A stretch of 64,000 nt of DNA from Azolla caroliniana (lineage: Eukaryota > Plantae > Polypodiophyta), in NCBI GenBank assembly GCA_043228905.1, contig JBHGNT010000001.1, positions 29,388,001 to 29,452,000 of the forward strand, read 5' to 3'. A program made the position numbers and the translations under genes. Shown here piece by piece: positions 748 through 24,852 of the stretch. The notes below the pieces were generated by a model, which saw only the letters and a program-made list of their open reading frames with translations, was not told the origin of the DNA and made no database searches. The stretch's first letter is position 1, and every line of letters begins with the position of its first letter.

Positions 748-2207
748 TCCGCCCCCACCAAACCGCACATCCACTGGTATGTGCCAAGAAGGGGAAATAG
801 GTGAGATCTTCGGCCATGGTGGTCAACCGAGTCCTTAGCGTCTTTGTCAGCTTTGCCCGACTTCGTCTTCCACTTCGAGCAAGCCCATCCGTCCCACATC
901 GACCACCGTAGCCTCCCGGTTCACCATATCCGTCTTATGCTCTCGAGCCGTTGGCTCCATTCGATCCACCATACTCGACGGAGTTCGCCGAACCACTGTC
1001 TCTGCCCGGTTCGCCAGACCCAGTCTTCGCACACCTCTCTTTATCTTCCTTCATTCTCTGCGCGACCTTGGATCAAATCCTCGTTCTTCCCGACTATTTG
1101 CCGATTATTGCACCGTGTACTCTTCGTCCACGCTTGTCTTGCCTCGGTCGCTTCCTCGACTCGGCATTGCCACGCGCCGAACTTCGTCATCGATCATCCT
1201 CGTGCTTGTCGCTAGGCCCTTACGCGGCCACATCGCACGTCTCGCACTCCGCTCCGCTCTGCGTACCCTTTCGAAAAGGTACGTTGCTTCCCCGACATCC
1301 GTATCAGTGCTCTCGTCTTCGGTGTCCTCCGCAACCTCCGATGTTGCCGCTTCACCCCGAGGTACACCCTCTTGGTCTACCTCGTATGTCCTCCGGATAC
1401 GCTCCGGATCTCTCCAATCGCACTCCGGTTTCCGCCCTTTGCGTGCCGCTCCTTTGGTTTTATCGTCTTCGCATGCCGAACACCTCAGTGTGTCGACTCT
1501 TCCCGCTCCGCGCTGTCGTGCCTTTCGGCTCCGGATCGTTTGCGTGAGTCGGGTGGGAACCACCGGGGTTTTGGACTAGGAGGAGGAAGAATTTGAGGCT
1601 AATCTAGTTATGAATATGAATAGATTATAAGAAAGAGATATAGAAACTTGTGAATCCCACAAGTATAATTGTTTTAGTTTATCTAAATCGTAGTAATAAA
1701 TTGAAATAATTTAGAATAGATTAGAGTAGATTGAGAAAAGAGATCAAACCTTGTGAATCCCACAAGTATTACATTAATCAATATTTATGTAAGAATATGA
1801 ATTTAGATTGAAAGAGATAGATTATCTTAAACTTCGTGAATCCCACGAGTATATTTTATTGATTGTTGGTGTTTTAGGAAATATATCCAATTTCCCAAAT
1901 ATTTTTCACACCTATTACATTGTGCTCCCCATCCTTATGTAGTGATGGGAGAGACTAAGCATAGCTACATGCTTTTTTTTCTAATATGTTCATGCACACT
2001 AAATGTGCATGTGATGCTTTTCTAATCCTTGCTTTTATTTGCTAAATATAGTGCTCATGCACGCTAGATGTGCATGAGTCACTTTTTAGTTGCTTGCGTT
2101 TTTCTATAAAATATTCACGCACTCTAAAAATGCACGATTTACCTTTTAATAAAGGTAGGCGCAAATAAAGCACTTATAGTTATTAAATCTATTTATAAAA
2201 CACTAAA

Positions 2208-2277
2208 GATAAGGTAGCATAATGGTAAAGTTGAGGTTTGGCTACGTGGAGGTACAAGGTTCAAATCTTGCCTTATG
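2208..2277 (+). promoter_or_regulatory. tRNA-like Pol III A/B-box cassette inside LTR-B (second copy about 4698-4767)
   Basis: A-box-like TAGCATAATGG at 2215-2225 and B-box-like GGTTCAAATCT at 2258-2268, flanked by complementary ATAAGG/CCTTAT. Confidence 0.55.
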
Positions 2278-2309
2278 CACGTGATAAATATCTTGGTATA
2301 TTATTTTAT

Positions 2310-3962
2310 TTATTTATATGTAATTAAATCGGTTATATTATTTTTTACTTTTTCACGTAGTGTACGAAATACACTACGACACTCGCCCCCTCCGAACCCG
2401 CACATCCTCTGGTATGTGCCGAAGTTGCCGATGCTCGTTGTCTCCCCTTCATCCTCCGTTTGTCCCGCTATGTCAACTTTGTCTCTCCATTTTGAATAGA
2501 CCCATTCTTTCCACCCGAACCATTGTCGCCATCCGATCCACCATATTCTTTGTTCATTCTTTGCATTGCCATGAGTGGTTGTCATGGTCCCTTGTGGTAC
2601 TCTTGAGCATCTCGGTGTATTGTCTCTCTCCACTCCGTGCTTGTCTTCCGTAGGTTCTACCCACGCGTCGATGTCGACCTCCGAATACGCGCTCGCTGTT
2701 AGGTCCTTGTGCGGCTTTAATGCATGCTTTATTTCTCGATGTTGCGCATGCGTCGTATTAGGCCGTAGCGCATGCTTCGTATTCCATCGTAGTGCATGCG
2801 CCGTATTACCCCGTAGTGCATGCTTATTTTTGCACCGTAGCGCGTGCTTCTTTTTGCGCCGTAGCGTGTGCTTCTCTTTACGCCGTAGCACGTGCTTCTT
2901 TTGGTGCCGTAGTGCGTGCTCCGTATTACATGCTTCTCCCATCGTAGACCCGACCTTCGCGTTGTCATGCTTTTGTTTACATCGGAATTTCAGACGGATC
3001 ATCTTCCATCCGAACCGGCTTCCGACTTTACCTTCCTTGTTGCCACCTCCCGTCTCTCCGGTCTCACGTTGGTTCTCGGACACAACCGCCGAAGTCTCTA
3101 GAATTAGTGGGTAGGAATCCTCGGTATTATCATCTTCCGTTGTTTCACCCATAGCCATGATCTCCTTGGCTATCTCTCCTTCGTATGCATCGGCTTCGAC
3201 CTTCGTTTCGTTGCCGCCACTTTCCTTATCTTTGGTGTTATGTCGACACCCGGGCTCCAGTACCGAAGTCTCCGAAACAATGGTGAAGGAATCCCTTCGT
3301 TCGTGCTCATTTACTTTGTCTTCCTCGTTGCCCTTCCGGTCCTCCACTTTTCCACCGACACATTCCGTCTCTCCGGTCTCACGTTGGTGCACGGGCACAG
3401 CCGCCGAAGTCTCTGGAACCGGTGTGGGGATACCCTTTCGTCCTCGATCTTCCTCCTCCTCGTCCTTTGTTGGCCTCGACTTTGGTTCGGTTTTAAGCTC
3501 CCCTTCAATGTCGACTTGCGACTTTTCATGCATCTCCGAACCCTTCCGCATCAAGCTCTCCTTCGGTGGTAGTCGGTGGCCGCTTTTCACCCACTGTTGA
3601 CCGTCGTTCGTGGACCATGTCCTCGTCCGCTTCGGTCTTAGATAGTCATATGTGTCTCGTATAGCTTCTTCAAAGGACTCCCACATCGGGCTTTGTTGTC
3701 GTATCTCGTGGATTCTCTCTTGAAGCTCATCCGTAGCCACCCGGTTGAAAGATAACACTTGCAATCTTTCTGAGATACCATATCGCAACATCTCCATTTT
3801 GTAGTCACGTAGATAGCGTGACACGTCCTTTCCATCGAATTGCCCGTTCTGTTGCACGAGCCGTTGTACTACTGTCGTGATCTCCGACATCTCGCGTTGT
3901 TCTTGTAGCATTCTCTCGAACATCATCATCATCATGTTCATCGCCTCTTGTTGATTCTCCAT
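2310..3962 (-). CDS. Element B single ORF: Gag N-terminal region, acidic low-complexity region, basic 8-aa repeats and Trp-rich C-terminus (about 550 aa)
   Basis: Uninterrupted ORF from the ATG just after the PBS through the PPT into the 3' LTR. FDGKDVSRYLRDYKMEMLRYGISE matches the gag of element F. No zinc knuckle and no pol. Confidence 0.7.
   Translation of the reverse strand: MENQQEAMNMMMMMFERMLQEQREMSEITTVVQRLVQQNGQFDGKDVSRYLRDYKMEMLRYGISERLQVLSFNRVATDELQERIHEIRQQSPMWESFEEAIRDTYDYLRPKRTRTWSTNDGQQWVKSGHRLPPKESLMRKGSEMHEKSQVDIEGELKTEPKSRPTKDEEEEDRGRKGIPTPVPETSAAVPVHQRETGETECVGGKVEDRKGNEEDKVNEHERRDSFTIVSETSVLEPGCRHNTKDKESGGNETKVEADAYEGEIAKEIMAMGETTEDDNTEDSYPLILETSAVVSENQRETGETGGGNKEGKVGSRFGWKMIRLKFRCKQKHDNAKVGSTMGEACNTEHALRHQKKHVLRRKEKHTLRRKKKHALRCKNKHALRGNTAHALRWNTKHALRPNTTHAQHREIKHALKPHKDLTASAYSEVDIDAWVEPTEDKHGVERDNTPRCSRVPQGTMTTTHGNAKNEQRIWWIGWRQWFGWKEWVYSKWRDKVDIAGQTEDEGETTSIGNFGTYQRMCGFGGGECRSVFRTLREKVKNNITDLITYK
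2705..2930. repeat. About 9 imperfect 24-bp tandem repeats in the element B ORF
   Basis: Units like tgcgccgtagcgcgtgcttctttt encode HALRRKKK-type octapeptides. Confidence 0.9.
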
Positions 3963-3978
3963 CTCCTTGCCACCCGCC

Positions 3979-3996
3979 TTCACGTCGGGTTCACCA
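3979..3996 (-). promoter_or_regulatory. Primer-binding site complementary to tRNA-Trp (element B)
   Basis: The minus strand reads TGGTGAACCCGACGTGAA, the reverse complement of the 3' end of plant tRNA-Trp(CCA) (...TTCACGTCGGGTTCACCA). Confidence 0.88.
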
Positions 3997-6900
3997 ACTG
4001 TGTCGTGCCTTTCGGCTCCGGATCGTTTGCGTGAGTCGGGTGGGAACCACCGGGGTTTTGGACTAGGAGGAGGAAGAATTTGAGGCTAATCTAGTTATGA
4101 ATATGAATAGATTATTATAAGAAAGAGATATAGAAACTTGTGAATCCCACAAGTATAATTGTTTTAGTTTATCTAAATCGTAGTAATAAATTGAAATAAT
4201 TTAGAATAGATTAGAGTAGATTGAGAAAAGAGATCAAACCTTGTGAATCCCACAAGTATTACATTAATCAATATTTATGTAAGAATATGAATTTAGATTG
4301 AAAGAGATAGATTATCTTAAACTTCGTGAATCCCACGAGTATATTTTATTGATTGTTGGTGTTTTAGGAAATATATCCAATTTCCCAAATATTTTTCACA
4401 CCTATTACATTGTGCTCCCCATCCTTATGTAGTGATGGGAGAGACTAAGCATAGCTACATGCTTTTTTTTCTAATATGTTCATGCACACTAAATGTGCAT
4501 GTGATGCTTTTCTAATCCTTGCTTTTATTTGCTAAATATAGTGCTCATGCACGCTAGATGTGCATGAGTCACTTTTTAGTTGCTTGCGTTTTTCTATAAA
4601 ATATTCACGCACTCTAAAAATGCACGATTTACCTTTTAATAAAGGTAGGCGCAAATAAAGCACTTATAGTTATTAAATCTATTTATAGAACACTAAAGAT
4701 AAGGTAGCATAATGGTAAAGTTGAGGTTTGGCTACGTGGAGGTACAAGGTTCAAATCTTGCCCTATGCACGTGATAAATATCTTGATATATTATTTTATT
4801 TATTTATATGTAATTAAATCGGTTATATTATTTTTTACTTTTTCACGTAGTGTACGAAATACACTACGACAGCGCTTGCCTTCCGTAAGCTCTTCTCGTG
4901 CGCCGATGTTGTCCCCGGAATATGCGCTCATTCTTTGGCCCTTAGGCGATCCCATTCCGCGTTCCTTGCTTCTCCTTTGCCCGTCGTGCTCTCTCACCGT
5001 AGAGCGTACCGTCATCCCGACCTCCGTGTTGGTGTCCCTCGAGGCTCTCGTTACCGCCTCGCCTCGACTTGCGCCCTCTTGGCTCGCTTGGCCCCGCACG
5101 TCCTCCGGGACGCCGCTTTGTCTCTCCCTGGTGCATAACTCTTTGCTCTCCGCACACCATCCTCCGTTTTCGTCGTTCATCCGCCGAATCCGGCAACTCA
5201 TCACTCCGTCTCTTGCAGCATGCTTGCCTCTCAACGGCTCGACCGGTCCGCCGTTGCCGGTCACTCGTTGCCGCTCTTCCGGCTACATGCTTGCTTCTTG
5301 GCCCTTCGTCGGCAGTAGTGCATGCTCTGTTTTATGCCGTAATGCATGCTTCGTGTTACACGCTTCTTCCGCCGTAGTCCCGACCTCCGCGTCAGCCTCT
5401 TCTTCCTTTGTCGTCGTAGACCCTTCCGTCTCCGTTTGGCCCTCTTGGCCATGCTCGTCCGTCTTCACGCACCGAGTACCCATTCCGGTAGCCTCGTCCG
5501 TTCCGGTCTCCGACTCCTCGCCGCCACCCGCCACCACCCGCCGTCTTTCCGGTCTTACGTTGATCCGCAACCGCCAAAGTCTCTAGAATAGGTGGGGAGG
5601 GTCCCGCTCGTTTCCGGTCTTCCACGGAACCGTAGTCATCATGCCCGCTTGGCCTCCCTCTCGCGCTCACAGGCTCCCACCGGGTGTTGTGGCTCGTTCG
5701 CCTCGACCTCCAATCATGCCGACTTAGCCTTCACCCGGATCAGTCTCAGCTGATCGAGTTCCAGTTTGGTCGGCTCCCTTCGGTAATCGTAACCGGCCGG
5801 TACATGTTTGTCCGAACAAATCCGGCCTTCCTGGCTCTTCTTCGGTTCGGGCCCGGTTGACTTTCGGTCATGTCAGATTATCGACCGGTTCATCTTCCGG
5901 TCGGGTCGGTTCCCGACTCTCTCCTATTTGCCGCTCCCGACCTCTCCGTCAGTCCTCTTGTATATGCCCGTTCCGGGCCTCGCATCCTCATCTTCGTGCG
6001 TGTTCGCTCCAGGCCACGCCTCCTCACGGCCACCACCCTTCTCTCCGGTCTTATGTTGGCATTCGAGCGCAACCGCCGTGGTCTCCGGTCTCGGTGTCGA
6101 GGGGACTTTCCTCCGTCCGCTATGACCTTCCTCGTCGTCGTTTCGGTCGCTCGCTTTGCCGCCGCCACCTTCCGTCTCTCCGGTCTCACGTGCGCTCTCG
6201 GGGCCGACCACCGAAGTCTCTAGAATAGGCGTGGGAAAAGTCCCGGTACCGTTACTCGCCGATGTCATGTTTGTAGCCACCTTCGTTCGAACGTCGTGGT
6301 CTGTGGCTATCTCGTCCCCGGTTACGCAAGCCTTGGTTACGCTTGCTACCTCCTCGTCCTCATCCTCGTCTCGGTTGCCCGCCTTGCTGTCGCCACCGCT
6401 CGTCGCTCTAGGACTCACGCCGGCACTCGGGCCGACCGCCGGAGCCTCTAGGGCCGGTGTGTGTAAGGCCGCGGCACCGCCGCTCGTTCTCTCTGTAGCC
6501 ACCTCCGTCCGGACGTCGTTATACACGGCTACCCCGCCTCCAATCGCGCAAGCCTCGATTACGCTTGTTGTCGTCTCTTCCATGTTGTCGTCTTGGTTGC
6601 CCGCCTTGCCACTGCCACCGCCCGTCCCTCTAGGTCTCACGCCGGAACTCGGGCCGACCGCCGGAGCCTCTAGGACCAGTGTGGGTAAGATCCCGGCACC
6701 GCCACTCGTTTCCTCCCCGCTCGATGTTTTGGGCCATAGTGTCCCGAAACCTCTGCCCACTCTCGAAGTGGTGCTCCCTGCTTCGTAGTCACCGGCCTCG
6801 TCCATGGCTGTCCCTTTTCCACAAGACGAGAGGGTCGCTTGCCCTGCACCCTCTCCCACGTCGTCGTCGTTGCACGCTCTTCCGGCCTCCGTATAGGCCC

Positions 6901-8060: not shown

Positions 8061-9349
8061 ACGTATCACGCTATCTTCGGGACTACAAGGCGGAAATGAT
8101 ACGGTGCGGTGTCGTGAAGAAAACGGTCCCTTGGCGGAAACTGAATTTAGCGTGTGTAAACCGGCCCTTACACGTGAGCACACTTTCGTTGCATAGTAGG
8201 TCGGTAGGTACAAGTCGGCTGAGGTGAAATCCTAGGTAGCACGCATTCAATAGGGAGAGACATAATATGATGTAATGAATGATAACGGCCTCCCTCCTTG
8301 GGCTATAAAAGAGAGGGAGAGGAATGAAAAAGGGATCGCTTTTGTGAAGGGAAGTGTTGTCGGACTGGGACCGAGCTCTTCTCCTCCTTCTTTCTCTGTA
8401 TTCGTTGGGTGCAGGTTTTCGGGAGGCTGACTCTACTTCCTGGAACGCCCGTGTGGTTCCGGCAGAGTCTCCATCTCCCTCTTCTACGTGTGAGTGAACA
8501 GGCGTCGGTGTTCACCTTGCCGGCCTGTTAGTTGTAACCGTCTTGATATACACATACAAATTAATATACATACATTGTCGTGAAGAATTTCGGCCATAGG
8601 CGAAAACCAGGAAACGTTGGCTACATCGGCGGGGTGCAGCATGTGTACGCACCCATGTACATTTAGTGTGAATATCGAGGGCGCCTTTATGGCGCTGAAG
8701 AGAGTCAAGTCGGGGCAGACGATCCCATGTAAGGCGGAATTTGTCCCACATTGTAACGCGTCCCTCTCCTTGTACTATAAAAGGAAGGGATCACCCTTTG
8801 GAAAGGGGTTGCCCATTTTTGCATTAGAGGGTATACCGGTAGGTTTAGGGTTAGGTTTCTTCTAGTTCTTCTTCTTTCCCTTCGTGTTCGCTTAGGTTTT
8901 GCTTCAGCTCATCTCCTGCGCAAGACCCCCCTTGGCGCGACGAGCCCGTAAGCTCCCCGACGGCGGCTTGGCAGCAGACGACTACTGTAACCTACCTCAG
9001 TCCGCCTCGAAGCCGGGAATGTATTCTTCTTCTATATATATACATATACGTTTGCATCTGTCTGTGTATATTGGCGTCTTGTTGGTGTCGGGTGCTCCCC
9101 TTCTTCCCTGCGTTTCCTGTACATGAGGGCGTGAGTCGGGTCGGGCTGTGTGTGCGTGTGTGTGCGTGAGTCGGTGTTAAGCACGCTCTCTCTCTCGCTC
9201 TCGCTCTCTCTCCCTTCGGTTGCTTCCGGTGTGTTTCAGAGATGCCCCAGAAGTAGTGAAGCACGACTTCCTACGCTCCGTCACTCCCTAGTCCAAGACC
9301 CCCGTGGTCCCGCCTTTCCCCACGCACGCGCGTAACAACGCGACATCTT

Positions 9350-9367
9350 TGGTGAACCCGACGTGAA
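9350..9367 (+). promoter_or_regulatory. tRNA-Trp PBS (element C)
   Basis: TGGTGAACCCGACGTGAA, 4 nt after the LTR end CGACA. Confidence 0.9.
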
Positions 9368-9382
9368 AGGCGGCAAGGGAGG

Positions 9383-10822
9383 ATGGAGTCGGAAGACGAT
9401 GAACTTGCGGAGATGGTGGCCGAATTGGTGTTGGAGTCAGCACGAGTGGTGATGAGGCGAGAAGCAACGCAACAAGCGGTTGAGCGAGTGGTTGAAAGAG
9501 TCGACCGTTTCAACGGGGACAAAGTCCCATCTTACTTGGTAGCCTACAACGCGGAAATGGAGGAGCGTGGCGTAGACGAGGCGTTGAGGCTGGAGTTCTT
9601 CTGTCGGGTCGTAGCTGTCCGGATGCATGCGGAAATAAAGGAGCTCCGAGAGGCTCATAGTTCGTGGGAGGCCTTCGAAGAGGCGCTCCTGAAGGCATAT
9701 GGAGGGCGGCGGAAGAGCTAGGGACGGCACGACTTTGACCAGTGGGTAGCATCGGCAAAGACCCACCGGGGCACGACCAAGGCGTTCCGAGAGTTCGAGC
9801 GACGGCTTGGTCGGTTCCCGGAGCGGGAACAAGGTTTGGTGGGGGCGGACAAAGTCCTTTTGTTCGTCAGGTCGATCGACCAAGCGGAACGGGAAGCCAT
9901 CGGGATTGAGCTCGAAGATGATGACGGAGCGAATGGGCTTACGGAGGACTGGTCGAAGGTCGGAAGGGTGTGCCAACGGCTAGACAACGAGCGAGCCGAG
10001 AAGGCTAAGAGGAAGGTACGCGACGGCGTGCCATCACAGCGGGAAGAGGCCGAACGGCAAAGAGAGTCGGCAAAGATCGGCGTTGGGGCCAGGATTGTGG
10101 AGGCGTACGCAGCTCTCGAGGCGATGCTCGAGGAAGAGGAAAGACAGAGGCCGCAAGCCGAGACTGAGAAGACGGACTTGCCCCACGCGACGGCGGAAGA
10201 TCGGTACGTCGGTACCACGGGAGAGGGTGCGGAACGAAACGCCCTCTCGACTTGCGGAGATAGAACGGCCAAGGACGAGGCCGAGATACCGATCGCGGAA
10301 CCGGAACGTTGGGACCAGAGGTTTCAGGCGTGTCAGCCCGAGATCCCGGTCATTGGAGAAGCAAGCCCAGACGGGGCTTGCGCGATCGGTAAGAAGATGA
10401 CCGCCGACCACGGAGAGCCGGTGGCTACGGACAAGGGCGTAAAACGAACGGGTGATTCCTTGTGTCTTCCCACACTTGCTCCCGAGACGATGGCAGTCGG
10501 GCCCGAGTGCCCATGCGAGTCCCAAGCAAAGGAAGCCAGCAGCGATAGGCCAAGAATCACCGGCGAGACGATACGGGGAAGGAACGGACGAAAGCCCACG
10601 GACCCGATTCCGAAGAACTCGGCATTCGGGCCCGCATGGCCATGTAAGGCTGAGGAGATGGATAGCAGTACCGAGGAGTCCTGGCACGATGCCAGCGAAG
10701 TCGGATGGGAAACGGCCTGCGAGGAGGCCAAGGACGGAAGCGGCACGAGGAGATCGTCATTCCAATACGGATGGGGCGTGATCCGGTCGTGGATCGTTCG
10801 ATCGAGGCCGGATTCGGCATAG
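9383..10822 (+). pseudogene. Element C Gag-like ORF with one in-frame TAG at 9719-9721
   Basis: ORFs 9383-9721 and 9836-10822 are in the same frame. Homologous to the D ORF (RFNGDKVPSYL...SWEAFEEAL...GADKVLLF...GLTEDW). Confidence 0.8.
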
Positions 10823-11532
10823 AGGTGCCAATACGGTGTCGCGTTGTTACGCGCGTGCGTGGAGAAGGGCGGAACCACGGGGGTCTTGGACTAAGGAGAA
10901 GGGGAGAAGGAATAGGACTTCGGAATGGAGCTTAGCACAAGAAGAGAAAGAATGAACAAAAGGAAGATGGAGGCCAAATGCTCAACAAGATATATTAGAA
11001 CCGAAAACCGATTACAAAATGGCGGCCGCGTAGGCCGCACCAAACGACTATGATAAACCCGAAACCCTAATCCGACGAAGAAGAAAAGAAACCCTAAACG
11101 AAACCCTAACCCTAAAACGAAGTGGTATACCTCACTCACACTCAAAATAAGGCAACCCCCACAATGGTGCTCTTCCTCTCCCTTTATAACACAAGGAGGG
11201 AAGACCGTTACATAAAAGGGTGCTACAAAATATCCCCTTTCAATCAATGGGGATATTTCCCTTGATTTTAGGGGAGGTGGGAATGATGGGTCTTAACTCC
11301 CACCTCTACACGAACTACTATGTACCTATCTCTCTCTCTCACGTGGATGTGCGCGCAAAAGCACATCACCTCTACACTTTACAAATCCTAAGGTGCATCT
11401 CTAGCACCATACTTATCACTATCGATAAATAGAAATACAACATGGTGATGTGCAACGTTGCACATCGCGGGTTTGCTTGCTTCGCTCGGTTTTCCGCCTA
11501 TGGACGAAAATCTTCACGACATCCGCCCCCAC

Positions 11533-13866
11533 CTAACCGCACATCCACCGGTATGTGCCAAAAGGGGAACAAAACGTGAGATTTTCGGCCAAGGCGGCCA
11601 ACCGAGCCCTTGACAACCTCGTGGGCTTGCCCGGCTTCGTCTTCCACTTCGAGCAAGTCCACCCCGTCCACACGAACCACCGTCGCCTTCCGGCCCACCA
11701 TCTCCGCCGAATGGTCTCGAACCGTCGGCTCCATCCGATCCGCCACACTCGTCGATGCTCGCCGAGTCGTTGCCTCCACCTGATCCGCCACGTCCACCGT
11801 GTTTCCTCGAACCACCGACTACACTCGGACCGCCATATCCGATGCCCGCGCTTTCCTCCCCGTTCGGTCCTCCCGAACGCCGTTGCCGACCCTTTGTCCG
11901 CCTCGCATATCCTCCGGATCCGCCTTTTTCGTGCCGCGCACCCCGTCGTGCCGACTCTTCTCGCTCCGCGCTTGCCTTCCGTAGGCTTTCCCCGTACGTC
12001 GGTGTTGTCCTCCGAATGCGTGCTCGGGCTTCGGTCCTTCGATGACCCCATCACGCATTTTTCGCCTTCCCTTTGCTTGCCGTGCTCTCTCGCCGTAGAG
12101 CATACCATCGTTCCCGTGCTCGTTGCTTGGCCCTCATGCGGCCGCATTGCACGTTTCGCATTCCGCTCCTCTTCGCGTACCCTTTCGGAAAGGTACCCTT
12201 CTTCCCCGATCGCCGTTTCGCTCGGAGGAACACCCTCTTGCCCCTCTTGGCCCGCTTGACCGCACACATCCTTCGTGATGTCGTGTTCGTTCCTTTGGGC
12301 GCATACATCTTCGTTCACCGCGACCTCCCGTATGCCTCTCTTGGTGCCTTCATCCGTTGTGGCCTTCGTCCCCTCGCCGCCACCGTCCGCCACTCTTGGT
12401 CTCACGTCGGCACTCGCGCCGATCGCCGGAGTCTCTATAGCCGGTGTGGAGGATCCCTCTCGGGTCTTATCTTCGTGGCCGCCGGTCTTAGCCTCTCCGT
12501 AGGCCACCTCTTCCCACCAATCTTCCCTAGCATCGTGCCGGGTCTCGTCGTCGCCGCCTTCCTCCTCGTATTCGACTCTCGAAGGCGTGATCCGACCGTC
12601 ATCTTCGGTTGCTCGATGTGGCTCCTTCGTAGGCATGCTTGTGTCTTGGCCCTCCATCGGCCGTATTGCATGCATCTCGTCTCGCTCTTCCGCCGTAGAC
12701 CCGACCTCCGTGTCGGTCTTCTCCTCCTTTGTCGCCGTAGCCCGTTCCGACACGGGCTCGCCGTCTTGGACCCACCCGTCCACCATCTCGTACTGGATAT
12801 CCGTTCCGGTAACCTCGTACGCTCCGGTCTCCGACTCCTCGCCGCCACCCGCCGTTTCTCCGGTCTTATGTTGATCCGCAACCGCCGTAGTCTCTAGAGT
12901 GGGTATGGAGGGTCTCGTTTGTTTCCGTTTTTCCCCCGAACCATGGTCGTCGTGCCCGGCTAGCCTCCATCTCGCGCTTACCGGCTCCCATCGTAACCGT
13001 AACCGTAACCGGCCAATCGGTCTCGCCGGCTTCCTTCGGTTTGGGCCCGGTTCGCCGGCCCTTACTCTCTTCTTCTTCCGTGCCGTATTCCGGTCGGGTC
13101 GGTTCCCGAATCTCTCCTCGTTTCCGCTCCGGTCCTCTCCGTCGGACCCACCGTATACGCCCATTCCGGGGCCCGCATACTCGTCTTCATATGCGCTCTC
13201 TCCGGGCCTCACCTCCTCACGGTCACCGCCCATCTCTCCGGTCTCACGTTGGCATTCGAGCACAACCGCCGAAGTCTCCGGCCCCGGTGTCAAGGGGTCT
13301 TGCCTCCGTCTGCTCCAATCTTCCTTCTCGATTCCGTTGCCCGCCTTGTCGCCGTCACCTCCCGTCGCACTAAGCCTCATGCCGGCACTTGGGCCGGCCA
13401 TTGGAGCCTCTAGGATTGGTGTGGGTAAGGACCCGGCACCGCCGCTTGTTGTCTCCGTAGCCGCTTTCGTTCGGACGTCGTTGTCCGCGGCTCCCCCATC
13501 TCCGATTCCGTAAGCCTCTAGTATGCTTGCCACCACCTCTTCTTCGCCGTTCTCCGCATCATTTTGTTTGCCCGCCTTGCCGCCGCCACCGCCCGTCGTT
13601 CTAGGTCTCGTGCCGGCACTCGGGCCGACCGCCGAAGCCTCTAGGGCCGGTGTGGAAGGTCGCGGCACCACCGCTCGCCTCCTCTCCGCTCGATGTTTTG
13701 GGCCGCCGTGCCCCGAATCTTCCGCCCACTTTCGAAGTGGCGCTCTCCGCTTTGTAGTCACCGGCCTCATCCTTGGCCGTCCATTCGCCGCAAGACGAGA
13801 GGGTTGCTCGCTCCGCACCCTCTCCCATGTCGTCGTCGTTTCGGTCGCCCGCCTTGCCGCCACCAC
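11533..13866 (-). CDS. Element D ORF2, the frameshifted continuation of the repetitive ORF, ending at the PPT
   Basis: Same repeat units as ORF1. Ends with the Trp-rich block WTGWTCSKWKTK...FGTYRWMCG, also present in A and B. Confidence 0.5.
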   Translation of the reverse strand: MVAARRATETTTTWERVRSEQPSRLAANGRPRMRPVTTKRRAPLRKWAEDSGHGGPKHRAERRRAVVPRPSTPALEASAVGPSAGTRPRTTGGGGGKAGKQNDAENGEEEVVASILEAYGIGDGGAADNDVRTKAATETTSGGAGSLPTPILEAPMAGPSAGMRLSATGGDGDKAGNGIEKEDWSRRRQDPLTPGPETSAVVLECQRETGEMGGDREEVRPGESAYEDEYAGPGMGVYGGSDGEDRSGNEERFGNRPDRNTARKKKRVRAGEPGPNRRKPARPIGRLRLRLRWEPVSARWRLAGHDDHGSGEKRKQTRPSIPTLETTAVADQHKTGETAGGGEESETGAYEVTGTDIQYEMVDGWVQDGEPVSERATATKEEKTDTEVGSTAEERDEMHAIRPMEGQDTSMPTKEPHRATEDDGRITPSRVEYEEEGGDDETRHDAREDWWEEVAYGEAKTGGHEDKTREGSSTPAIETPAIGASADVRPRVADGGGEGTKATTDEGTKRGIREVAVNEDVCAQRNEHDITKDVCGQAGQEGQEGVPPSETAIGEEGYLSERVREEERNAKRAMRPHEGQATSTGTMVCSTAREHGKQREGEKCVMGSSKDRSPSTHSEDNTDVRGKPTEGKRGARRVGTTGCAARKRRIRRICEADKGSATAFGRTERGGKRGHRIWRSECSRWFEETRWTWRIRWRQRLGEHRRVWRIGWSRRFETIRRRWWAGRRRWFVWTGWTCSKWKTKPGKPTRLSRARLAALAENLTFCSPFGTYRWMCG

Positions 13867-15547
13867 CGTCCGTCACTCTAGGCCTCTCGCCGGCTCTCGG
13901 GCCGGGTGCCGGAGTCTCTAGGACCGGTGTGTGGAAGGTCGCGACACCACCACTCCCCTCGTCCGTAGCCACCTCCATTCGGACATCGTCGTCCGTGGCT
14001 ACCCCGTCTTCGGTTTCGCAAGCATCGAGTATGCTTGCCGCCGCCTCTTCTTCGCCGGTCTCGTCCTCATTTCGGTTGTCCGCCTTGCCGCCGCCACCGT
14101 CCGTAGCTCTAGGTCTCGTGCCGGCACTCGGGCCGACCGCCGAAGCCTCTAGGGCCGGTGTGTGGAAGGTCGCGACACCATCGCTCGTTTCGTCTTCCTC
14201 CTCCATTTCGCAAGCCTCGAGTATGCTCGCGAAATCCTCGTAGAACGTTTCGGGCAACCGCGTCCCGAAACTTCCGCCCACTCTCGAAGTGGCGTCCATC
14301 GCTCCGTAGATATCGGCCTCGTCCATGGCCGTTCTTTTTCCCCGAAATGAGACGGTCGCTTGCTCCGCACCTTCTCTCGTGTCGACGCCGTGGTCGCCCG
14401 CCTTGCCACCGCCACCGCCTTTCACCATAGGTCTTACGCGGGCACTCGGGCCGGCCACCGGGGTCTCTTGAACCGGTGCGTGGAAGGTTGCGGTACCGCC
14501 GCTTGTCTCCTCCGTACTCGATGATTCGGGCCACCATGTCCCGAATCCGCCATGTCCGCTCGAATCGGCGATCGCCGCCTCACCGTCCCCGACCTCGTCC
14601 TCGGTCGTTCTTTCCCCCCATGTCGAGAGGGCGGCTCGCTCCGCACCCTCTCCCGTGGTACCGATGTACCATTCTCTTTCGGCCTCCGCATAGGCCCCGT
14701 CCTCCATGTGTGAGGAAGCTCCTTCCTCCGCGTCCTCCGATTCGCTCGGGCCCGACCCCGCAATAAGCCATTCTTCGGCTTCGATTTTCGCCATTACGAG
14801 CCCGCACGCCTCCTGTATTAGCGCTTGTAGGTCGAGCCCCTCCAAACCGGTTCGCGATGAGCTCTCGTCCGGCGGCATGGCGTAGTTGGTCGTCGCTCTC
14901 TCTTCTCCCCCGCTCGCGGGCCGTGTTGTGGCCAACCGCCTCGCCTCATGTTGCCGACACACCCATTCCACTTCGGGCCACTCCTCGGTGAGACCATGCG
15001 CCCCATAATCGTCTTGAAGCTCGAACGTGATGTCCATCCTCTCCTCATGATGGACCGTCTCCAAAAATAGGAGGACTTTGTCCGCCCCCACCGATCTTCG
15101 TTCCCACTCCGAGAGTTGAGAGAAACGACGCTCGAACTCTCGGAATGCCTCTATTGCGCTCCGATGGCGCCTCGCCGACGCCATCCACCGATCGAACTCT
15201 CGCCGACCTCTTACCTCCGATTCCGCGCACCCGTATGCCTCCATTAGAGCCCCTTCAAAGGACTCCCACGATTCGTGAGCTTCTTGGAGCTCCTTGACCT
15301 CCTCGTACTTTGATGCGGCCGCCGCTCGACGAAAGAACTCTAGCCTCGTCGCTTCGTCCACGCCCATCCCCGTCATTTCCGCATCGTAGGCTCTCAAAAA
15401 TTTTGGGACCTCCTTCCCATCGAACCGGCCGACTAGACGGACCACCCTTTCGACCGCTTGTTGAGCCGCCTCTCGCCTCGCCCTCTTCCGTCCGGCGTCC
15501 GTCAAGATCTTTGTCATCATCTCCTCGAAGTCGAAGCCTTCCTCCAT
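13601..15547 (-). CDS. Element D ORF1: Gag-like N-terminus and acidic Gly/Ala/Glu-rich repeats (648 aa)
   Basis: ATG about 20 nt after the PBS. Gag motifs are shared with A, C and F. Repeats such as TFHTPALEASAVGPSAGTRPRATDGGGGKA. Confidence 0.65.
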   Translation of the reverse strand: MEEGFDFEEMMTKILTDAGRKRARREAAQQAVERVVRLVGRFDGKEVPKFLRAYDAEMTGMGVDEATRLEFFRRAAAASKYEEVKELQEAHESWESFEGALMEAYGCAESEVRGRREFDRWMASARRHRSAIEAFREFERRFSQLSEWERRSVGADKVLLFLETVHHEERMDITFELQDDYGAHGLTEEWPEVEWVCRQHEARRLATTRPASGGEERATTNYAMPPDESSSRTGLEGLDLQALIQEACGLVMAKIEAEEWLIAGSGPSESEDAEEGASSHMEDGAYAEAEREWYIGTTGEGAERAALSTWGERTTEDEVGDGEAAIADSSGHGGFGTWWPESSSTEETSGGTATFHAPVQETPVAGPSARVRPMVKGGGGGKAGDHGVDTREGAEQATVSFRGKRTAMDEADIYGAMDATSRVGGSFGTRLPETFYEDFASILEACEMEEEDETSDGVATFHTPALEASAVGPSAGTRPRATDGGGGKADNRNEDETGEEEAAASILDACETEDGVATDDDVRMEVATDEGSGGVATFHTPVLETPAPGPRAGERPRVTDGGGGKAGDRNDDDMGEGAERATLSSCGEWTAKDEAGDYKAESATSKVGGRFGARRPKTSSGEEASGGAATFHTGPRGFGGRPECRHET

Positions 15548-15567
15548 CTCTTTCTCCCTTGCCGCCC

Positions 15568-15585
15568 TTCACGTCGGGTTCACCA
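15568..15585 (-). promoter_or_regulatory. tRNA-Trp PBS (element D)
   Basis: The minus strand reads TGGTGAACCCGACGTGAA. Confidence 0.9.
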
Positions 15586-16667
15586 AAGATGTCGCGTTGT
15601 TACGCGCGTGCGTGGAGAAGGGCGGAACCACGGGGATCTTGGACTAAGGAGAAGGGGAGAAGGAATAGGACTTCGGAATGGAGCTTAGCACAAGAAGAGA
15701 AAGAATGAACAAAAGGAAGATGGAGGCCAAATGCTCAACAAGATATATTAGAACCGAAAACCGATTACAAAATGGCGGCCGCGTAGGCCGCACCAAACGA
15801 CTATGATAAACCCGAAACCCTAATCCGACGAAGAAGAAAAGAAACCCTAAACGAAACCCTAACCCTAAAACGAAGTGGTATACCTCACTCACACTCAAAA
15901 TAAGGCAACCCCCACAATGGTGCTCTTCCTCTCCCTTTATAACACGAGGGAAGACCGTTACATAAAAGGGTGCTACAAAATATCCCCTTTCAATCAATGG
16001 GGATATTTCCCTTGATTTTAGGGGAGGTGGGAATGATGGGTCTTAACTCCCACCTCTACACGAACTACTATGTACCTATCTCTCTCTCTCACGTGGATGT
16101 GCGCGCAAAAGCACATCACCTCTACACTTTACAAATCCTAAGGTGCATCTCTAGCACCATACTTATCACTATCGATAAATAGAAATACAACATGGTGATG
16201 TGCAACGTTGCACATCGCGGGTTTGCTTGCTTCGCTCGGTTTTCCGCCTATGGACGAAAATCTTCACGACAACGGGAGAGGGTGCGGGACGAGCCGCCCT
16301 CTTTTACATGGGGAGAAAGACCGACCGGGCGAAGGTCGAGATTTGGGAAGAGAATGAAAGCCGGTCCTATGGGTTTCCTTACACCGATCCGGCTACAGGC
16401 CCGAGTGCCGGCGTGAGTCCGACAAGAGAGATCGGTGGCGACAGGAGAACGGGACTCGGCAATCCGGAGAAAGACAAACGAACCCGAGCGAGAACCGGGC
16501 GGAGCGGACTCCCGGATGACCATTCCAGGAGGGAGGAAGAGAGCTGGCCTACGAAGAGGCCAAGGACACGGTACGTCGGTACCACGGGAGAGGGTGCGGA
16601 ACAAAACGCCCTCTCGGCATACGAAGAAGGACGACCCGGGACAGGGTCAAGAAGACAAATCGACGAC

Positions 16668-16890
16668 CGACGGAGGATCCTTCACACCGGTTCTAGAGAC
16701 TTCGGTAGTCGGCAACGCGGTCGACGTAAGACCAAGATACTGACGGTGGCGGCGAGGTGACGAAGGCAAGGGCTACGGAAGGGCGGTCGACGGAGGATCC
16801 TTCACACCGGTTCTAGAGACTTCGGCAGTCGGCAACGCGGTCGACGTAAGACCAAGATACTGATGGTGGCGGCGAGGTGACGAAGACAAT
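16668..16890. repeat. 120-bp tandem duplication inside element C
   Basis: cgacggaggatccttcacaccggttctagagacttcgg...gaggtgacgaag occurs at about 16668 and 16788. Confidence 0.9.
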
Positions 16891-19800
16891 GGGCGTAAGG
16901 ATGTCCGGTACTACGAGATCCCCACACCGTTCCGGAGACTCCGGTTGTGCTGCCATCGTGGCAACGTGAGACTGAGGGAGAAGGAAGGTGGCGGCGGGAA
17001 ACAGGACTCGGCTACGCGGAAGACACGAGGAGAGTCTAGGAGGGACTCAAACAAAAGACACCCGAGTTTCGGCAAGCATAGAAATGGAGTCCGGTCCTAT
17101 GGGACCCTCACACTGATCCGGAGACTCCGGCAGTTCGGCCAACGTGGCAACATGAGACCGAGGGAGAAGGACGGTGGCGGTAGGGAACGGAACCCGATGA
17201 CACGAGGTTCGGAAGAAGCTAGTAAGGGCAAACACGGAGAGGTGTGTTAGGCCGAAAAGGCACACCTTGGGCAGAACAAGAGTCTCGCAAGTGGCCATCG
17301 CGGGCCGGATCGAAGCGTGCCTACGGGACGGTGTTCGGCGGGGGCGGGGCCGAACGAAGGAAGCGGAAGACGGCACAAGGGAGGTGCCGAGAATGAAGTG
17401 ACAAGTGCCTAGTGGACTGCACAGGGTCGGGATCAGGATGGCAAGAGAGGCCGGAGGAGGATCCTCCACACTCACTTCGTAGATCTCGGTAGCTCCGTCG
17501 AAGTAACGAAGACTGACACGGCAAGCCGGGGTGACAAGCTGGTGGGGGCGAGGGGACGGCGGCAAGCAGAAGACTCAGGACCTATTGCAGCAGCACGAAG
17601 ACGGGAAGGGCCAAGCGGGCTACTACGGGGTGTTCCTCAGATGCAGAGGACACTGGTATGCGGGTGAGTGGCGATGCATGATCTGGCCGGAAAGGGACCG
17701 ACGAGGCGTGCAATAAACCGGAGTGCGACATAGGCAGTGCCAAACAACGGGCGAGGGTACCTGGCACACGGAGGTGCCGAAGCGGAAAGGCGAGCGCGGA
17801 AAACGTCGGAAAGGGATCCTCCACACCGTTCCGGAGACCATGGCGGTTCGAGCTGACGCGGCGATGTGAGACCATGGAGAAGGAAGGTGTCGGCGGAAGG
17901 ACGAAGGCAACGCGAACCACCATTAGGACATCACGATTCGACAACGGAGGCCAAGCGGGCTGCCACGGGCATTCCTCAAGCGGAGGACATCGGGCATACG
18001 GCGAGAAGCGAGGCGTTCATACGGCCGAACAAGGGCCAACGGAAGAACGCGTACTACGGAGATCGCGGCCGAGGACCCATTGACGGGTCAAACGAGCCTA
18101 CGAGGAGGCGAGCGCGAAGGAAGACTCGAAGCCGACGGATCTAACTGGCAGCGAGCCGGGATGCGGATCACGGGAGACCGGTTTCTCACCGGCCGAAATC
18201 TCTCACCCTTCAACCAGATTGGCACGTACCGGTGGACATGCAGTTAGGTGGGGGCGAATGTCGTGAAGAATTTCGGCCATAGGCGAAAACCGGGAAACGT
18301 TGGCTACATCGGCGGGGTGAAGCGTGTGTACGCACCCATGTACATTTAGTGTGAATATCGAGGGCGCCTTTATGGCGCCGAAGAGAGTCAAGTCGGGGCA
18401 GACGATCCCATGTAAGGCGGGATTTGTCCCACATTCTAACACGTCCCTCTCCTTGTACAATAAAAGGAAGGGATCACCCTTTGGAAAGGGGTTGCCCATT
18501 TTTGCATTAGAGGGTATACCGGTAGGGTTAGGGTTAGGTTTCTTCTACTTCTTCTTCTTTCCCTTCGTGTTCGCTTAGGTTTTACTTCAGCTCATCTCCT
18601 GCGCAAGACCCCCCTCGGCGCGACGAGCCCGTGAGCTCCCCGACGGCGGCTTGGCAGCAGACGACTACTGTAACCTACCTCAGTCGGCCTCGAAGCCGGG
18701 AATGTATTCTTCTTCTATATATATACATATACGTTTGCGTTTGTCTGTGTATATTGGCGTCTTGTTGCTGTCGGGTGCTCCCCTTCTTCCCTGCGTTTCC
18801 TATACATAAGGGCGTGAGTCGGGTCGGGCTGTGTGTGCGTGAGTCGGTGTTAAGCACGCTCTCTCTCTCTCTCTCTCGATCTCTCTCCCTTCGGTTGCTT
18901 CCGGTGTGTTTCTGAGATGCCCCAGAAGCAGTGAAGCACGACTTCCTACGCTCCGTCACTCCCTAGTCCAAGACCCCCGTGGTCCTGCCTTTCCCCACGC
19001 ACGCGCGTAACAACGCGACAACGTGTTCACATACTCGGACTTCTAGTCGTCTCGTTTTGTTGTGTTGATGCATTGTGATTCCTATGTGCCCCGCGTCCGT
19101 GCGCGTGCAAGTGCGTCTGTTGCCTTCCCGTTCCCCTCCTTCTCAGCTATTTCTCGGTCCAAGACCCCGGTGGTCCCGCCTCGTTCTACACGCACGCGCA
19201 TAACAACGCAACAACGGGATTTCGAAAGGACTGCAAGTGACATCCTTCAACCGGCTGGCTACCGACAGGCTTCAAGTAAGTATCCACAGGCTACGACAAC
19301 AAAATCCGACGTGGGAAGCGTTTGAAGAGGCACTAAAGACCACGTTCGCTATCAAGGACTCCTCCAACGCAACGCGGAGAGGATTCGAGGATTGGGTGGA
19401 AACGCCGGACAAGGGGATGAAGGTCCTCGATGTGTTTTTGGCATTCAAAAGTCGGTTCGGGAGGTTGTCTGCGAGAGATCAAGCTATCCTCGCACCGGAC
19501 AAAGTTATTATGTTCTTACGAGCCGTAGACGTCTGGGACCGGAAGGATCTTAGAGTGCTTCTAGAGGACACGACTACCGAGAGTGGCCTCACCTAAACAT
19601 GGGAAAGCATGCAGGATATCGTCGTGCGATACACAAAGAGGGGGCAATGGCTTGCCAACGAAGAAAAGAGGGTTTCGGAACCAATGCCGAAACCGAGATC
19701 CGGATCGGAAGACTATCAACCGCGGGCTCGGGAGACGACGACCAAGAAGGGAATCGACGCAACCACGGTAGAGCAGTTGTTGAAAGAAATGGAGAATCGG

Positions 19801-20679
19801 AATAGCGCGATGGTAAAGAAGTTGGATGACCTTCCCACAAGCTCCAAGTATATGGACCGTCGGTGCATATGGTGCGATAGCACCGAACATGATCGGAGGG
19901 ATTGCGACGAGCACAAGGAGGCATTACGACAGGATCTTATCTATTACGAGGGAAATCGGATACATTCGATGGACTCTCGGAAGCCACTCCGACCGAACTT
20001 CTGGAAAGGCGACATGAAGAAGGTCCTAGAGGAGGAAATAGCGGCGAAGAGCAATTACGCGACAACCGCGGGAATACGTGTCGGGGAGTCATCGGGAGCA
20101 AAGATATCTTTTTGGCCGGAAGTGCTAGAAAACACCGAGAAAACCGACTCCAACTAGATCCGAAGCACCGCGGAAGGCATCCAAGAAGCTACGGGATGGG
20201 AGTGCCCCGTCGATAAGAATAGCATATACGCCCTATGTCAATTACATGAGGTGTATGTGGACGAGAAGCGGCGACGCACAGAGGATGCGGTTGGACCATC
20301 AAAGACACCGGAGAGCTGGAACTCCAACGGAAGAGGGAAAGGAAAATTGATTCCGACATTCAAACTCGCTTCGGACATCAAGCAACGGACGGACATAAAG
20401 AAAGTGTTCGAGGAAAGAATCCTCGATAGCCGGGTAGATTTTTCACTTCGGGAATTACTCGGAATAGCAAAAAAGGAGTTCCATGATCTTCTTGTGGATC
20501 TCGTAAAAAGAAAAAGACAAAATACGGAGGAAAGTGCGTCGATGGTGAATGCAAATACCGTTCTGATGAACGACACCGAAGTGGAGGACGAGATTCCGAA
20601 TTCCCACTATACAAAGCCACACTGGGCGCGTGCAACTATAGAGACTCCGGTCCGAATCGGCAACATCAAAGAGCCCGTG

Positions 20680-21125
20680 CACACTACGTGAAATATGTAA
20701 AATACTATATCCGATTTAAATTACGTATAATAAAATAAAATAAAATATTAAAAATATTTATTACATGTAAAGGGCAAGATTCAAACCCTATACCTCCACA
20801 TAGACAAACCCCAACCTTACCATTGTACTAACTTATCTTAAGTGTTCTAAATATAGATTTAATACGTATAAGACCTTTATTTACACCTACCTTTATTAAA
20901 AGGAAAGTCATGCATTTTTTTAGAATGCGTGAATACTTTATTTATAAGAATAATATACACCAATAAAAAATGACTCGTGCACATCTAGCAAACATGAGCA
21001 CTATATTTAGGAAATAAAAGCATAATGTAAAAAGGCAACTCATGCACATTTAGAGTGCATGAACACTTTAGAAAAAGCATGAAGCTATGCTTAGCCTCTT
21101 TCATCCTTATATAAGGAGGAGAGAA
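20680..21125 (+). repeat. Diverged partial LTR of the B type (probable 3' LTR remnant of F)
   Basis: Reverse complement of about 1925-2363, with shared blocks acactacgtgaaa, cctacctttattaaaagg, gcacatctagc and gctatgcttag. Confidence 0.8.
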
Positions 21126-21420
21126 AGATGTATGTGGGGTTGTTGTTTGACATGACCATGTATTTGGATGTGTTGGTTAAAACATAACACTTGACTATAT
21201 ACAAGAAGTGAAGAGTTCGAATCTTGACATGATTGTTGTCATGTCTGTGACAACTACCTAGTAGACTAGGAGCATAGGCCTCCAACGGCCTACCGGTTCG
21301 CACATGGGTCCAGCTCCCAAACACGACTCACCAATCCGACTCTCAAGTCTGGATCTCCAATCCAGGCGCTTTGATCAGGCTCTCGGCTTGTTCAGTCGAT
21401 CTAGCCCACGTTGAGCTTGC

Positions 21421-24103: not shown

Positions 24104-24661
24104 TTAATTGTTGGATTCGACTAACAAAATGATATGCTCAAAGAAGGCAATATCACACGGAATTGTGATGGGTCCCTCTTGATCAAACCCGAATTCTTCA
24201 TTAGCCTTCTCTAGTAAGGTTGCAAACAAAGGATGGTTAATCATATTTGCCTTTAAAAGAAATCGTCTCCTTTCTTCGCCCACATACAAAGCAAAGTAGC
24301 CTCGAGGTGTTTTGCTGAAACTCTTCTTCTTGCAACTAGTATCGATATTAGCCATGTTTGAGGGGCGCCTTAACGGTGACATGAAATAGGATAATGATTT
24401 TGATAATGAATTCAGTGGTGACCTCGGTAAATATTCAATATTATTATCATTAGCACCATTATGATAAGGTTTATCATTATTCTTAATATTATTATTGTTA
24501 GAAGTGAACAATGCTTCATGTTGTTCTAGATAATCTAATTCATTGAAAGCTTCATTATTGGAGCAATAAGGATGCACAAATCTAGCACACTTGGGTAACA
24601 CTATATTAGAGCACATCAATGGTTGCATGCTCTTGAATATCCCCCTCCGATTCCTCGCCAT
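24104..24661 (-). CDS. SAUR: SAUR (small auxin-up RNA) family protein, 185 aa, intronless
   Basis: TPRGYFALYVGEERRRFLLKANMINHPLFATLLEKANEEFGFDQEGPITIPCD is the SAUR domain. ATG at 24661; TATA at about 24877-24883. Confidence 0.93.
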   Translation of the reverse strand: MARNRRGIFKSMQPLMCSNIVLPKCARFVHPYCSNNEAFNELDYLEQHEALFTSNNNNIKNNDKPYHNGANDNNIEYLPRSPLNSLSKSLSYFMSPLRRPSNMANIDTSCKKKSFSKTPRGYFALYVGEERRRFLLKANMINHPLFATLLEKANEEFGFDQEGPITIPCDIAFFEHIILLVESNN

Positions 24662-24804
24662 TTGTGAGTACACTTTGAATGCCCCTGGTATAGAGAGGTA
24701 GAAAAGAAGAAGAGTATTGACGTCTCTAAAGAGGTTAATTTGGTTTGTGAACCCAAAACAATATAGGTTGTATAACTTGTTTAAGAAATAAAACCGAAGA
24801 AACA

Positions 24805-24806
<2 letters not shown>

Positions 24807-24849: not shown

Positions 24850-24852
<3 letters not shown>

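What the first reader, a model, noticed from the sequence alone, without database searches (positions are those of the whole stretch)
2208..2277. tRNA-derived Pol III cassette embedded in an LTR
Seen: LTR-B contains GATAAGG TAGCATAATGGT...CAAGGTTCAAATCTTG CCTTAT, with A and B boxes at tRNA spacing and a pairable acceptor-like stem. It lies antisense to the element and is present in both LTRs. The diverged LTR at about 20771-20835 reads TAGTACAATGG...GGTTTGAATCT. The variants TTCAA and TTTGA are the two CpG-decay products of the canonical GGTTCGAATC, which points to a real ancestral B box. Known: Cassandra TRIMs carry 5S Pol III promoters in their LTRs. Inference: this is a tRNA-type analogue (antisense RNA, TFIIIC insulator or captured SINE head).
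Basis: partly seen in the sequence, partly recalled or inferred. Interest (0 to 1): 0.7.

Follow-up and report, generated by a model that had tools for sequence, protein, structure and literature searches.

The report
Decaying tRNA relic in retrotransposon LTR
A plant jumping-gene family carries a decayed tRNA-like piece with RNA polymerase III promoter boxes, facing backwards, in each terminal repeat; the boxes drift like their neighbours and are altered in related sublineages, so the piece is likely a captured passenger rather than a working promoter.

Summary
A tRNA-like 71-nt stretch (2208-2278) with A and B boxes lies antisense in U3 of both LTRs of a young 3.4-kb gag-only Ty3/gypsy element with Phygy hallmarks (4-bp NCGN target duplication, Trp-type primer site). 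It exceeds chance (0 of 1000 shuffles) and is Rfam's best hit locally (tRNA, 17.7 bits, below threshold). The cassette also sits in the LTR of a partner with an open RNase H-integrase frame.

In 33 copies fetched by a flank motif, the boxes are no better conserved than the flanks; 1 of 33 keeps all 11 core positions; an 11-copy clade shares an altered A box, and 21 of 33 lost the B-box C. Only the T-arm pairs well. It faces away from the element, so it cannot drive it as in Cassandra.

tRNA-bearing LTRs are published (Helenus, 2024), and this scan noted such LTRs in at least 10 other genomes, though not this family. Best reading: a captured tRNA or SINE head carried as a passenger. No expression data were obtained.

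The parts
2208..2278 (+). tRNA-like cassette in U3 of the 3' LTR, antisense to the element
   Evidence: Rfam tRNA 17.7 bits over the full model
2215..2225 (+). A box (TAGCATAATGG)
   Evidence: 0 mismatches to TRGCNNARYGG (consensus recalled); core TNGNNNANNNG as in PMC11724288
2258..2268 (+). B box (GGTTCAAATCT); CpG site of relatives at 2262-2263
2304..2307 (+). first run of four T after the cassette (possible Pol III stop; five or more T only from 2341). AT-rich context, so weak
4698..4768 (+). same cassette in the 5' LTR (differs at one position, in the acceptor-like stem)
20766..20837 (-). diverged cassette (B box TTTGA) in a truncated LTR-B fragment 20681-21132 that follows a gag fragment of the same family (19215-20680, +)
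1514..2381 (-). 3' LTR (868 nt), TG...CA ends
4001..4871 (-). 5' LTR (871 nt), 99.3% identical to the 3' LTR: 3 substitutions and one 3-nt indel
1510..1513 (.). 4-bp target-site duplication GCGC, left copy (right copy 4872-4875); NCGN type
3980..3996 (-). primer-binding site, 4 nt from the 5' LTR; tRNA-Trp type (isotype recalled; Phygy uses Trp in 81%)
2382..2394 (-). polypurine tract abutting the 3' LTR
   Evidence: same tract beside 5 of 29 LTR tips in the loci
2310..4085 (-). single open frame, 591 aa stop to stop: gag-like N-terminus plus low-complexity tail, no pol; ends inside the 3' LTR before the cassette
   Evidence: no Pfam hit; 60-75% identity over the N-terminal part to DUF4100/protease-bearing Gag proteins
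1933..1941 (-). position of the Pol II TATA box of relatives (TATATAA); degenerate (TACATAA) in this element. Places the cassette in U3, about 270 nt upstream
   Evidence: assignment as TATA box is inferred

Best explanation
The 71-nt stretch is likely a captured tRNA-gene or SINE-head fragment that sits antisense in U3 of one Phygy-like Ty3/gypsy LTR family and is likely carried along as a neutral passenger. Shown: it is tRNA-like beyond chance, lies antisense in U3, occurs in gag-only elements and in an LTR beside an open RNase H-integrase frame, and its boxes vary as much as the flanks. Inferred: it entered one LTR once, before the sampled subfamilies split; reverse transcription copied U3 to both ends of every daughter; the element is transcribed by Pol II from its own TATA box on the other strand, so nothing selects for the boxes, which erode by CpG decay and ordinary substitution. 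The window's young subfamily happens to retain the best-looking version.
For: Chance excluded. Family-wide presence: of 34 loci fetched by a motif outside the cassette, 33 reach into the cassette region and show it whole or in part; L024 is interrupted just before it. Partner LTR beside an open 736-aa RH-INT frame: L026; LTR beside a full-type gag: L022. No extra conservation: A 0.876, B 0.895, between boxes 0.892, flanks 0.908 and 0.889; 76% and 59% of 324 other 11-nt windows are at least as conserved. 1 of 33 copies keeps all 11 core positions, 15 the A core, 7 the B core. On a tree built without the box columns, an 11-copy clade (bootstrap 92) lacks the A-box G, and the pairs L009/L023 (98) and L011/L033 (100) lack both that G and the B-box C. 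All 8 loci with assembly coverage of 14 or more lack the A-box G, and 5 of the 8 lack the B-box C. Internal-branch changes at core sites 11 vs 7.8 in matched background, whereas the LTR tip (positive control) has 1 in 11 sites. In three runs the B-box C>T share (11, 18, 15% of depth) exceeds that of the neighbouring CpG 2245-2246, which is not listed at the 8% cut-off. Cloverleaf lost: anticodon stem 23%, D stem 55%, acceptor 59% paired. The three other LTR types of the window show no such cassette.
Against: The young subfamily of the window has both boxes intact in both LTRs, and by depth 82-89% of laid contigs keep the B-box C and 51-72% read the canonical G next to it. The partner LTRs L022 and L026 keep a canonical or near-canonical B box although their U3 tip beyond the cassette is different. 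Seven of 11 core sites never change on an internal branch, and terminal changes at core sites are low (9 vs 15, P 0.10). The T-arm stays 95% paired, and the covariation score exceeds 500 of 500 shuffles (that control ignores relatedness). The 34 loci are biased to old, assemblable copies, come from metagenome assemblies of possibly several species, and 11 sites give little power. The capture event itself (donor, SINE tail, duplication) was not found.
Confidence: 0.62

Rival explanations
1. The B box alone is a TFIIIC-binding site that acts as a chromatin barrier between flanking DNA and the LTR's Pol II promoter about 270 nt away; the A box is dispensable, and copies that lose the B box still spread for a while.
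For: Position in outer U3 suits a barrier. L022 and L026, the partner LTRs with the highest assembly coverage (34, 136), have canonical-type B boxes but altered A boxes. 82-89% of depth keeps the B-box C in three runs. PMC11724288 (passage) says the A box matters less for initial TFIIIC binding in yeast.
Against: 5 of the 8 high-coverage loci lack the B-box C; C>T is fixed in supported pairs; B box no better conserved than flanks; sister LTR types lack it.
Confidence: 0.15
2. In subfamilies with both boxes intact, Pol III makes a 95-135-nt antisense RNA that pairs with U3 of the genomic RNA and feeds small-RNA self-regulation.
For: Both boxes are intact in both LTRs of this young element, with TA-rich DNA upstream and T runs downstream.
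Against: Only 1 of 33 sampled copies has both cores; T runs are expected in such AT-rich DNA; no selection signal.
Confidence: 0.12
3. The resemblance to tRNA is chance in a degenerate LTR.
For: Rfam score is below gathering (17.7 vs 29) and was found only in a narrow, post hoc search; two other copies tested gave no tRNA hit at E 10 (L022, L004); the part between the boxes aligns only weakly to the window's tRNA-Asp (z 0.3-2.3).
Against: Strict A+B pair in 0 of 1000 LTR shuffles; whole-cassette alignment to the window's tRNA-Asp z 1.7-4.3 in 9 of 9 copies tested; full-length model match with T-arm and acceptor in register; canonical GGTTCGAATCC occurs in a relative (L022).
Confidence: 0.08
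4. It is a Cassandra/Helenus-type Pol III promoter that transcribes the element itself.
For: tRNA-like boxes in both LTRs of a non-autonomous element.
Against: It points away from PBS, gag and PPT; T runs stop Pol III within about 25-60 nt; the element is 3358 nt with 868-nt LTRs; the Helenus entries seen carry the tRNA on the element's sense strand; the LTR type is shared with a pol-bearing partner.
Confidence: 0.02

Closest known systems
Helenus / TRIMp3 (Kojima 2024, PMC10886601; read parts 1-4 of 6 of the text, passages, and supplement passages incl. Helenus-1_SMo)
   Same: tRNA-like sequence with A and B boxes in both LTRs; no functional cloverleaf; PBS and PPT present; proposed origin by SINE2 insertion into an LTR. 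The paper also says that 'not a few' Repbase LTRs hold a tRNA-like part.
   Different: Helenus are 311-1263-bp non-coding TRIMs with conserved boxes; the three LTR entries seen in the supplement carry the tRNA on the sense strand; the one plant family (Selaginella) has 120-bp LTRs and 5-bp TSDs. Here: antisense, in U3 of 868-bp LTRs, gag-coding 3.4-kb element, 4-bp TSD, LTR shared with a pol-bearing partner, boxes not preferentially conserved.
Cassandra TRIM (as described in PMC10886601; original paper not read)
   Same: Pol III promoter motifs from a small-RNA gene in both LTRs of a plant retroelement.
   Different: 5S-derived, sense, highly conserved and shown to drive the element's RNA; none of these holds here.
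Phygy clade of non-chromovirus Ty3/gypsy (Neumann et al. 2019, PMC6317226; passages and one supplement row)
   Same: 4-bp TSD with NCGN preference, tRNA-Trp PBS, RH before INT in the partner.
   Different: No tRNA-like LTR segment is mentioned in the passages seen; this copy is a gag-only derivative; RT-based placement was not done.
TR-GAG elements (PMC4350172; search listing and start of abstract only)
   Same: Under 4 kb, LTRs, PBS, PPT, one gag-like frame.
   Different: Described from angiosperms; the cassette is not part of the definition.

Membership tests
Helenus (TRIMp3) | tRNA-like sequence in both LTRs | tested here: met
Helenus (TRIMp3) | TRIM: short (311-1263 bp), no protein coding | tested here: not met
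   3358 nt with a 591-aa frame; partner with RH-INT
Helenus (TRIMp3) | A and B boxes conserved above surrounding sequence | tested here: not met
Helenus (TRIMp3) | tRNA part oriented to transcribe the element (sense; seen in 3 supplement entries, not stated in the text passages) | tested here: not met
   antisense to PBS/gag/PPT
Helenus (TRIMp3) | Pol III transcription | not testable with these tools
   no raw RNA reads available
Cassandra | 5S rRNA-derived segment in LTR | tested here: not met
   Rfam gives tRNA, no 5S hit
functional tRNA gene | cloverleaf with four paired stems, passing ARAGORN/Rfam thresholds | tested here: not met
tRNA-derived SINE (SINE2) | tRNA-derived head with A/B boxes | tested here: met
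tRNA-derived SINE (SINE2) | free-standing copies with body, tail and target duplication | tested here: inconclusive
   none in 148,451 letters; share of laid contigs running on into unlike sequence 0-0.02; no whole genome held, and loci were picked by an LTR motif
Phygy (non-chromovirus Ty3/gypsy) | 4-bp TSD, NCGN preference | tested here: met
   GCGC duplication; 18 of 24 flanked LTR tips NCGN
Phygy (non-chromovirus Ty3/gypsy) | tRNA-Trp primer-binding site | tested here: inconclusive
   PBS present; Trp identity recalled, no host tRNA-Trp in hand; Phygy 81% Trp
Phygy (non-chromovirus Ty3/gypsy) | RT/RH/INT phylogeny groups with Phygy; no chromodomain | not tested
   no REXdb reference here; no chromodomain Pfam hit in L026's frame
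TR-GAG | under 4 kb, LTRs, single GAG frame, no pol | tested here: met
   definition from the abstract start

The most novel reading that the evidence does not exclude
A protein-coding Ty3/gypsy lineage uses an outward-facing tRNA-type module in U3 as a portable TFIIIC barrier or antisense Pol III unit that shields or tunes its own Pol II promoter, scattering very many such sites through the host genome; the subfamilies now multiplying keep the B box while older copies lose it.
Probability: 0.15. Interest if true: 0.65.

Novelty: new member of a known kind. Interest (0 to 1): 0.25.

Why it matters
As a passenger it is a tidy example of how LTRs pick up small-RNA gene fragments, the first step proposed for the birth of Helenus and Cassandra, here in the unproductive orientation and in a coding family. 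It also warns that a high-copy LTR can inflate tRNA-pseudogene and B-box counts in this plant group. If the minority reading held, it would be a retrotransposon carrying its own Pol III-type insulator or antisense unit, testable with one point mutation.

Tried and rejected
No whole genome is held for this window, so no genome-wide copy set or SINE search. No RNA holder listed; the one presumed RNA run laid (X23) gave 0 contigs and X20 is probably DNA: no evidence either way on expression. Viral contig scan: 0 matches. Rfam on 1-24000 found no tRNA hit at E 10; on L022 and L004 cassettes none either. One search used a mis-registered structure string and is discarded; one search uses the register. 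Idea that the shared segment is a CACTA transposon end (CACTACGTGAAA at 2362 and 20682): rejected, the motif is part of the ordinary LTR tip in the loci and no second end was found. Idea that the cassette primes reverse transcription: rejected, no complementarity to the PBS by inspection. Donor isotype: not determined; most copies have GTC at the anticodon position, but the middle part aligns only weakly to the window's tRNA-Asp. Minimum-energy folds are not cloverleaves (z -2.5, -1.2, -0.7). Depth bins were not used to rank parts of the LTR. Host lineage: an Atlas look-up of a host gene gave only Eukaryota. Literature searches for an antisense tRNA-like segment in coding or moss LTRs gave nothing relevant (3, 1, 0, 0 papers; listings only); the library lacks most subscription papers and Repbase reports. 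Sequence look-up in earlier findings: none.

Full report
Observation. A scan of the whole window for an A box and a B box 28-38 nt apart (consensus motifs recalled) finds, with no mismatch, only the copies at 2215 and 4705. With one mismatch per box it adds only the copy at 20830 (-) and the window's true tRNA-Asp gene. A strict pair arose in 0 of 1000 dinucleotide shuffles of the LTR and 0 of 40 block shuffles of the window. On 2170-2320 the Rfam tRNA model is the best of 4227 families and spans 2208-2278 at 17.7 bits (E 0.19; gathering 29). It is not reported in a 24-kb search, ARAGORN calls no cassette in the window or in 34 of 34 loci, and two other copies gave no tRNA hit. So the stretch is tRNA-like beyond chance but is not a tRNA gene.

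The element. It spans 1514-4871 on the minus strand. The LTRs (1514-2381, 4001-4871) are 99.3% identical, with 3 substitutions and one 3-nt indel, so the insertion is young. It has a GCGC target duplication, a primer site at 3980-3996 (Trp type, recalled), a purine tract at 2382-2394 and one 591-aa frame with a gag-like start and no pol. Eighteen of 24 flanked LTR tips in the fetched loci border NCGN. A 4-bp NCGN duplication and a Trp primer are the marks of the Phygy clade described from Physcomitrella (PMC6317226, passages and a supplement row). The host is a land plant (auxin-inducible genes), probably a moss; this was not established. Relatives have a TATA box at the place of 1933-1941, which puts the cassette in U3, about 270 nt upstream of it and about 100 nt from the LTR tip, pointing outward. 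The third copy lies in a truncated LTR (20681-21132) behind a gag fragment of the same family.

More copies. No genome is held. To avoid choosing copies by their boxes, I scanned metagenome contigs with a motif 38-66 nt upstream of the cassette and got 34 loci. The cassette is a fixed part of this LTR type. It is also in L026, where the LTR abuts an open 736-aa RNase H-integrase frame, and in L022, beside a full-type gag; these two have a different U3 tip beyond the cassette. Between 2856 and 3952 contigs lay on the LTR in each of four runs labelled as four organisms, so the family is abundant and shared by relatives. The other three LTR types in the window show no such cassette. A profile of the cassette found no free-standing copy in the 148,451 letters held, and almost no laid contig ran on into unlike sequence (0-0.02); this is a weak test for a SINE.

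The CpG argument. Among 33 copies that cover the B box (the twin 5' LTR and three truncated loci left out), 5 read CG, 21 TG, 5 CA, 1 GG and 1 is deleted. In three runs 51, 72 and 67% of depth read G at 2263.

The conservation test. Mean agreement with the commonest letter is 0.876 for the A box, 0.895 for the B box, 0.892 between them, 0.908 and 0.889 for the flanks and 0.924 for the LTR tip; 76% and 59% of 324 other 11-nt windows match or exceed the boxes. Of 33 copies, 15 keep the five core A positions, 7 the six core B positions and 1 (this LTR) both; two of the 33 have deletions across a box. Old copies decay whatever their function, so I separated shared from private changes on a tree of 36 rows (L007 dropped as too short) built without the box columns. 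A clade of 11 copies (bootstrap 92) lacks the third A-box base, a G of the core TNGNNNANNNG (PMC11724288, passage). The pairs L009/L023 and L011/L033 lack this G and the B-box C, whose need for TFIIIC binding I recall from yeast work. All 8 loci with assembly coverage of 14 or more lack that G and 5 lack the C. Internal-branch changes at the 11 core sites number 11 against 7.8 in base-matched background (P 0.84 for a deficit), while the LTR tip has 1 in 11 sites. By depth, C>T at 2262 is 11, 18 and 15%, whereas the nearby CpG at 2245-2246 is not listed at the 8% cut-off (that table covers only the middle of the stretch, and one search showed 40 of 160 rows, so the A box was not fully assessed in the runs). 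The cloverleaf is lost: over 30 copies without large deletions the T-arm is 95% paired, acceptor 59%, D stem 55%, anticodon stem 23%.

Results against my reading. The window's young subfamily has both boxes intact, and 82-89% of depth keeps the B-box C. The two partner LTRs keep canonical-type B boxes. Terminal changes at core sites are fewer than expected (9 vs 15, P 0.10), and 7 of 11 core sites never change internally (expected 6.9). The covariation score beats 500 of 500 shuffles, a control that ignores relatedness. The loci favour old copies and may mix species, and 11 sites give little power. A B-box-only role in the active subfamilies is therefore not excluded.

Mechanism. Most likely a tRNA gene fragment or SINE head entered U3 of one ancestral LTR in reverse orientation (inferred; no donor, tail or duplication found, no terminal CCA) and has since been copied to both ends of each daughter by normal reverse transcription. 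The element would be transcribed by Pol II on the other strand. Pol III starting at the cassette would run outward and meet four T within about 10-25 nt, so it cannot make the element's RNA. I give 0.62 to the passenger reading, 0.15 to a TFIIIC barrier, 0.12 to an antisense Pol III RNA, 0.08 to chance and 0.02 to a Cassandra-like promoter.

Comparison and novelty. tRNA-derived sequence in LTRs is published: Helenus (PMC10886601; parts 1-4 of 6 read, plus passages and supplement passages), and that paper notes that many Repbase LTRs hold tRNA-like parts. A 2026 sugar beet paper cites the same idea (PMC13570524, passages). This element is not a Helenus: it is long, coding and antisense, and its boxes are not preferentially conserved. 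Structurally it fits TR-GAG (PMC4350172, abstract start only). Four searches found no description of an antisense tRNA-like segment in a coding or moss LTR, within a library that lacks most subscription papers and Repbase. This scan has noted tRNA-bearing LTRs in at least 10 other genomes but not this sequence. Verdict: real, modestly new as an instance, most likely non-functional; interest 0.25.

Noticed in passing
L011 2842-2914 (-): Free-standing degenerate tRNA-like gene (Rfam tRNA 38.8 bits, above gathering; missed by ARAGORN) about 100 nt outside the tip of an LTR-B; one case, no evidence of targeting.
   Followed up: partly
window 1933-1941 (-): The window element's TATA position is degenerate (TACATAA) where relatives read TATATAA, yet the element is young; it is also the subfamily with the best A/B boxes.
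   Followed up: no
window 1-21200: Dense nest of Phygy-like elements with four LTR types sharing termini and primer site; several are gag-only with long low-complexity frames (e.g. 10837-16271, LTRs 99.4% identical; 8576-19020, 95.3%).
   Followed up: partly
L022 1200-1378 and L026 oriented 330-515: Partner LTRs replace the AT-rich stretch between cassette and tip with a different pyrimidine-rich segment of about 140 nt, a U3 module swap.
   Followed up: no
window 1970-2150: U3 holds a duplicated unit of about 60 nt with TGCA/CATG palindromes, and 1609-1856 holds three GTGAATCCCAC repeats; candidates for the real regulatory motifs.
   Followed up: no
L027 near 2607; L024 near 537: Other insertions interrupt the LTR inside the cassette (L027, an inverted LTR of the same family) and about 14 nt before it (L024); single cases.
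   Followed up: no
window 40690-40763 (-): Genuine tRNA-Asp(GTC) gene followed by a T run.
   Followed up: yes
window 24104-24886 and 28997-29578 (-): Tandem auxin-inducible (SAUR-type) genes; further host genes: a nucleotidyltransferase (44856-46615) and a MATH/UCH protease exon (63225-63722).
   Followed up: no
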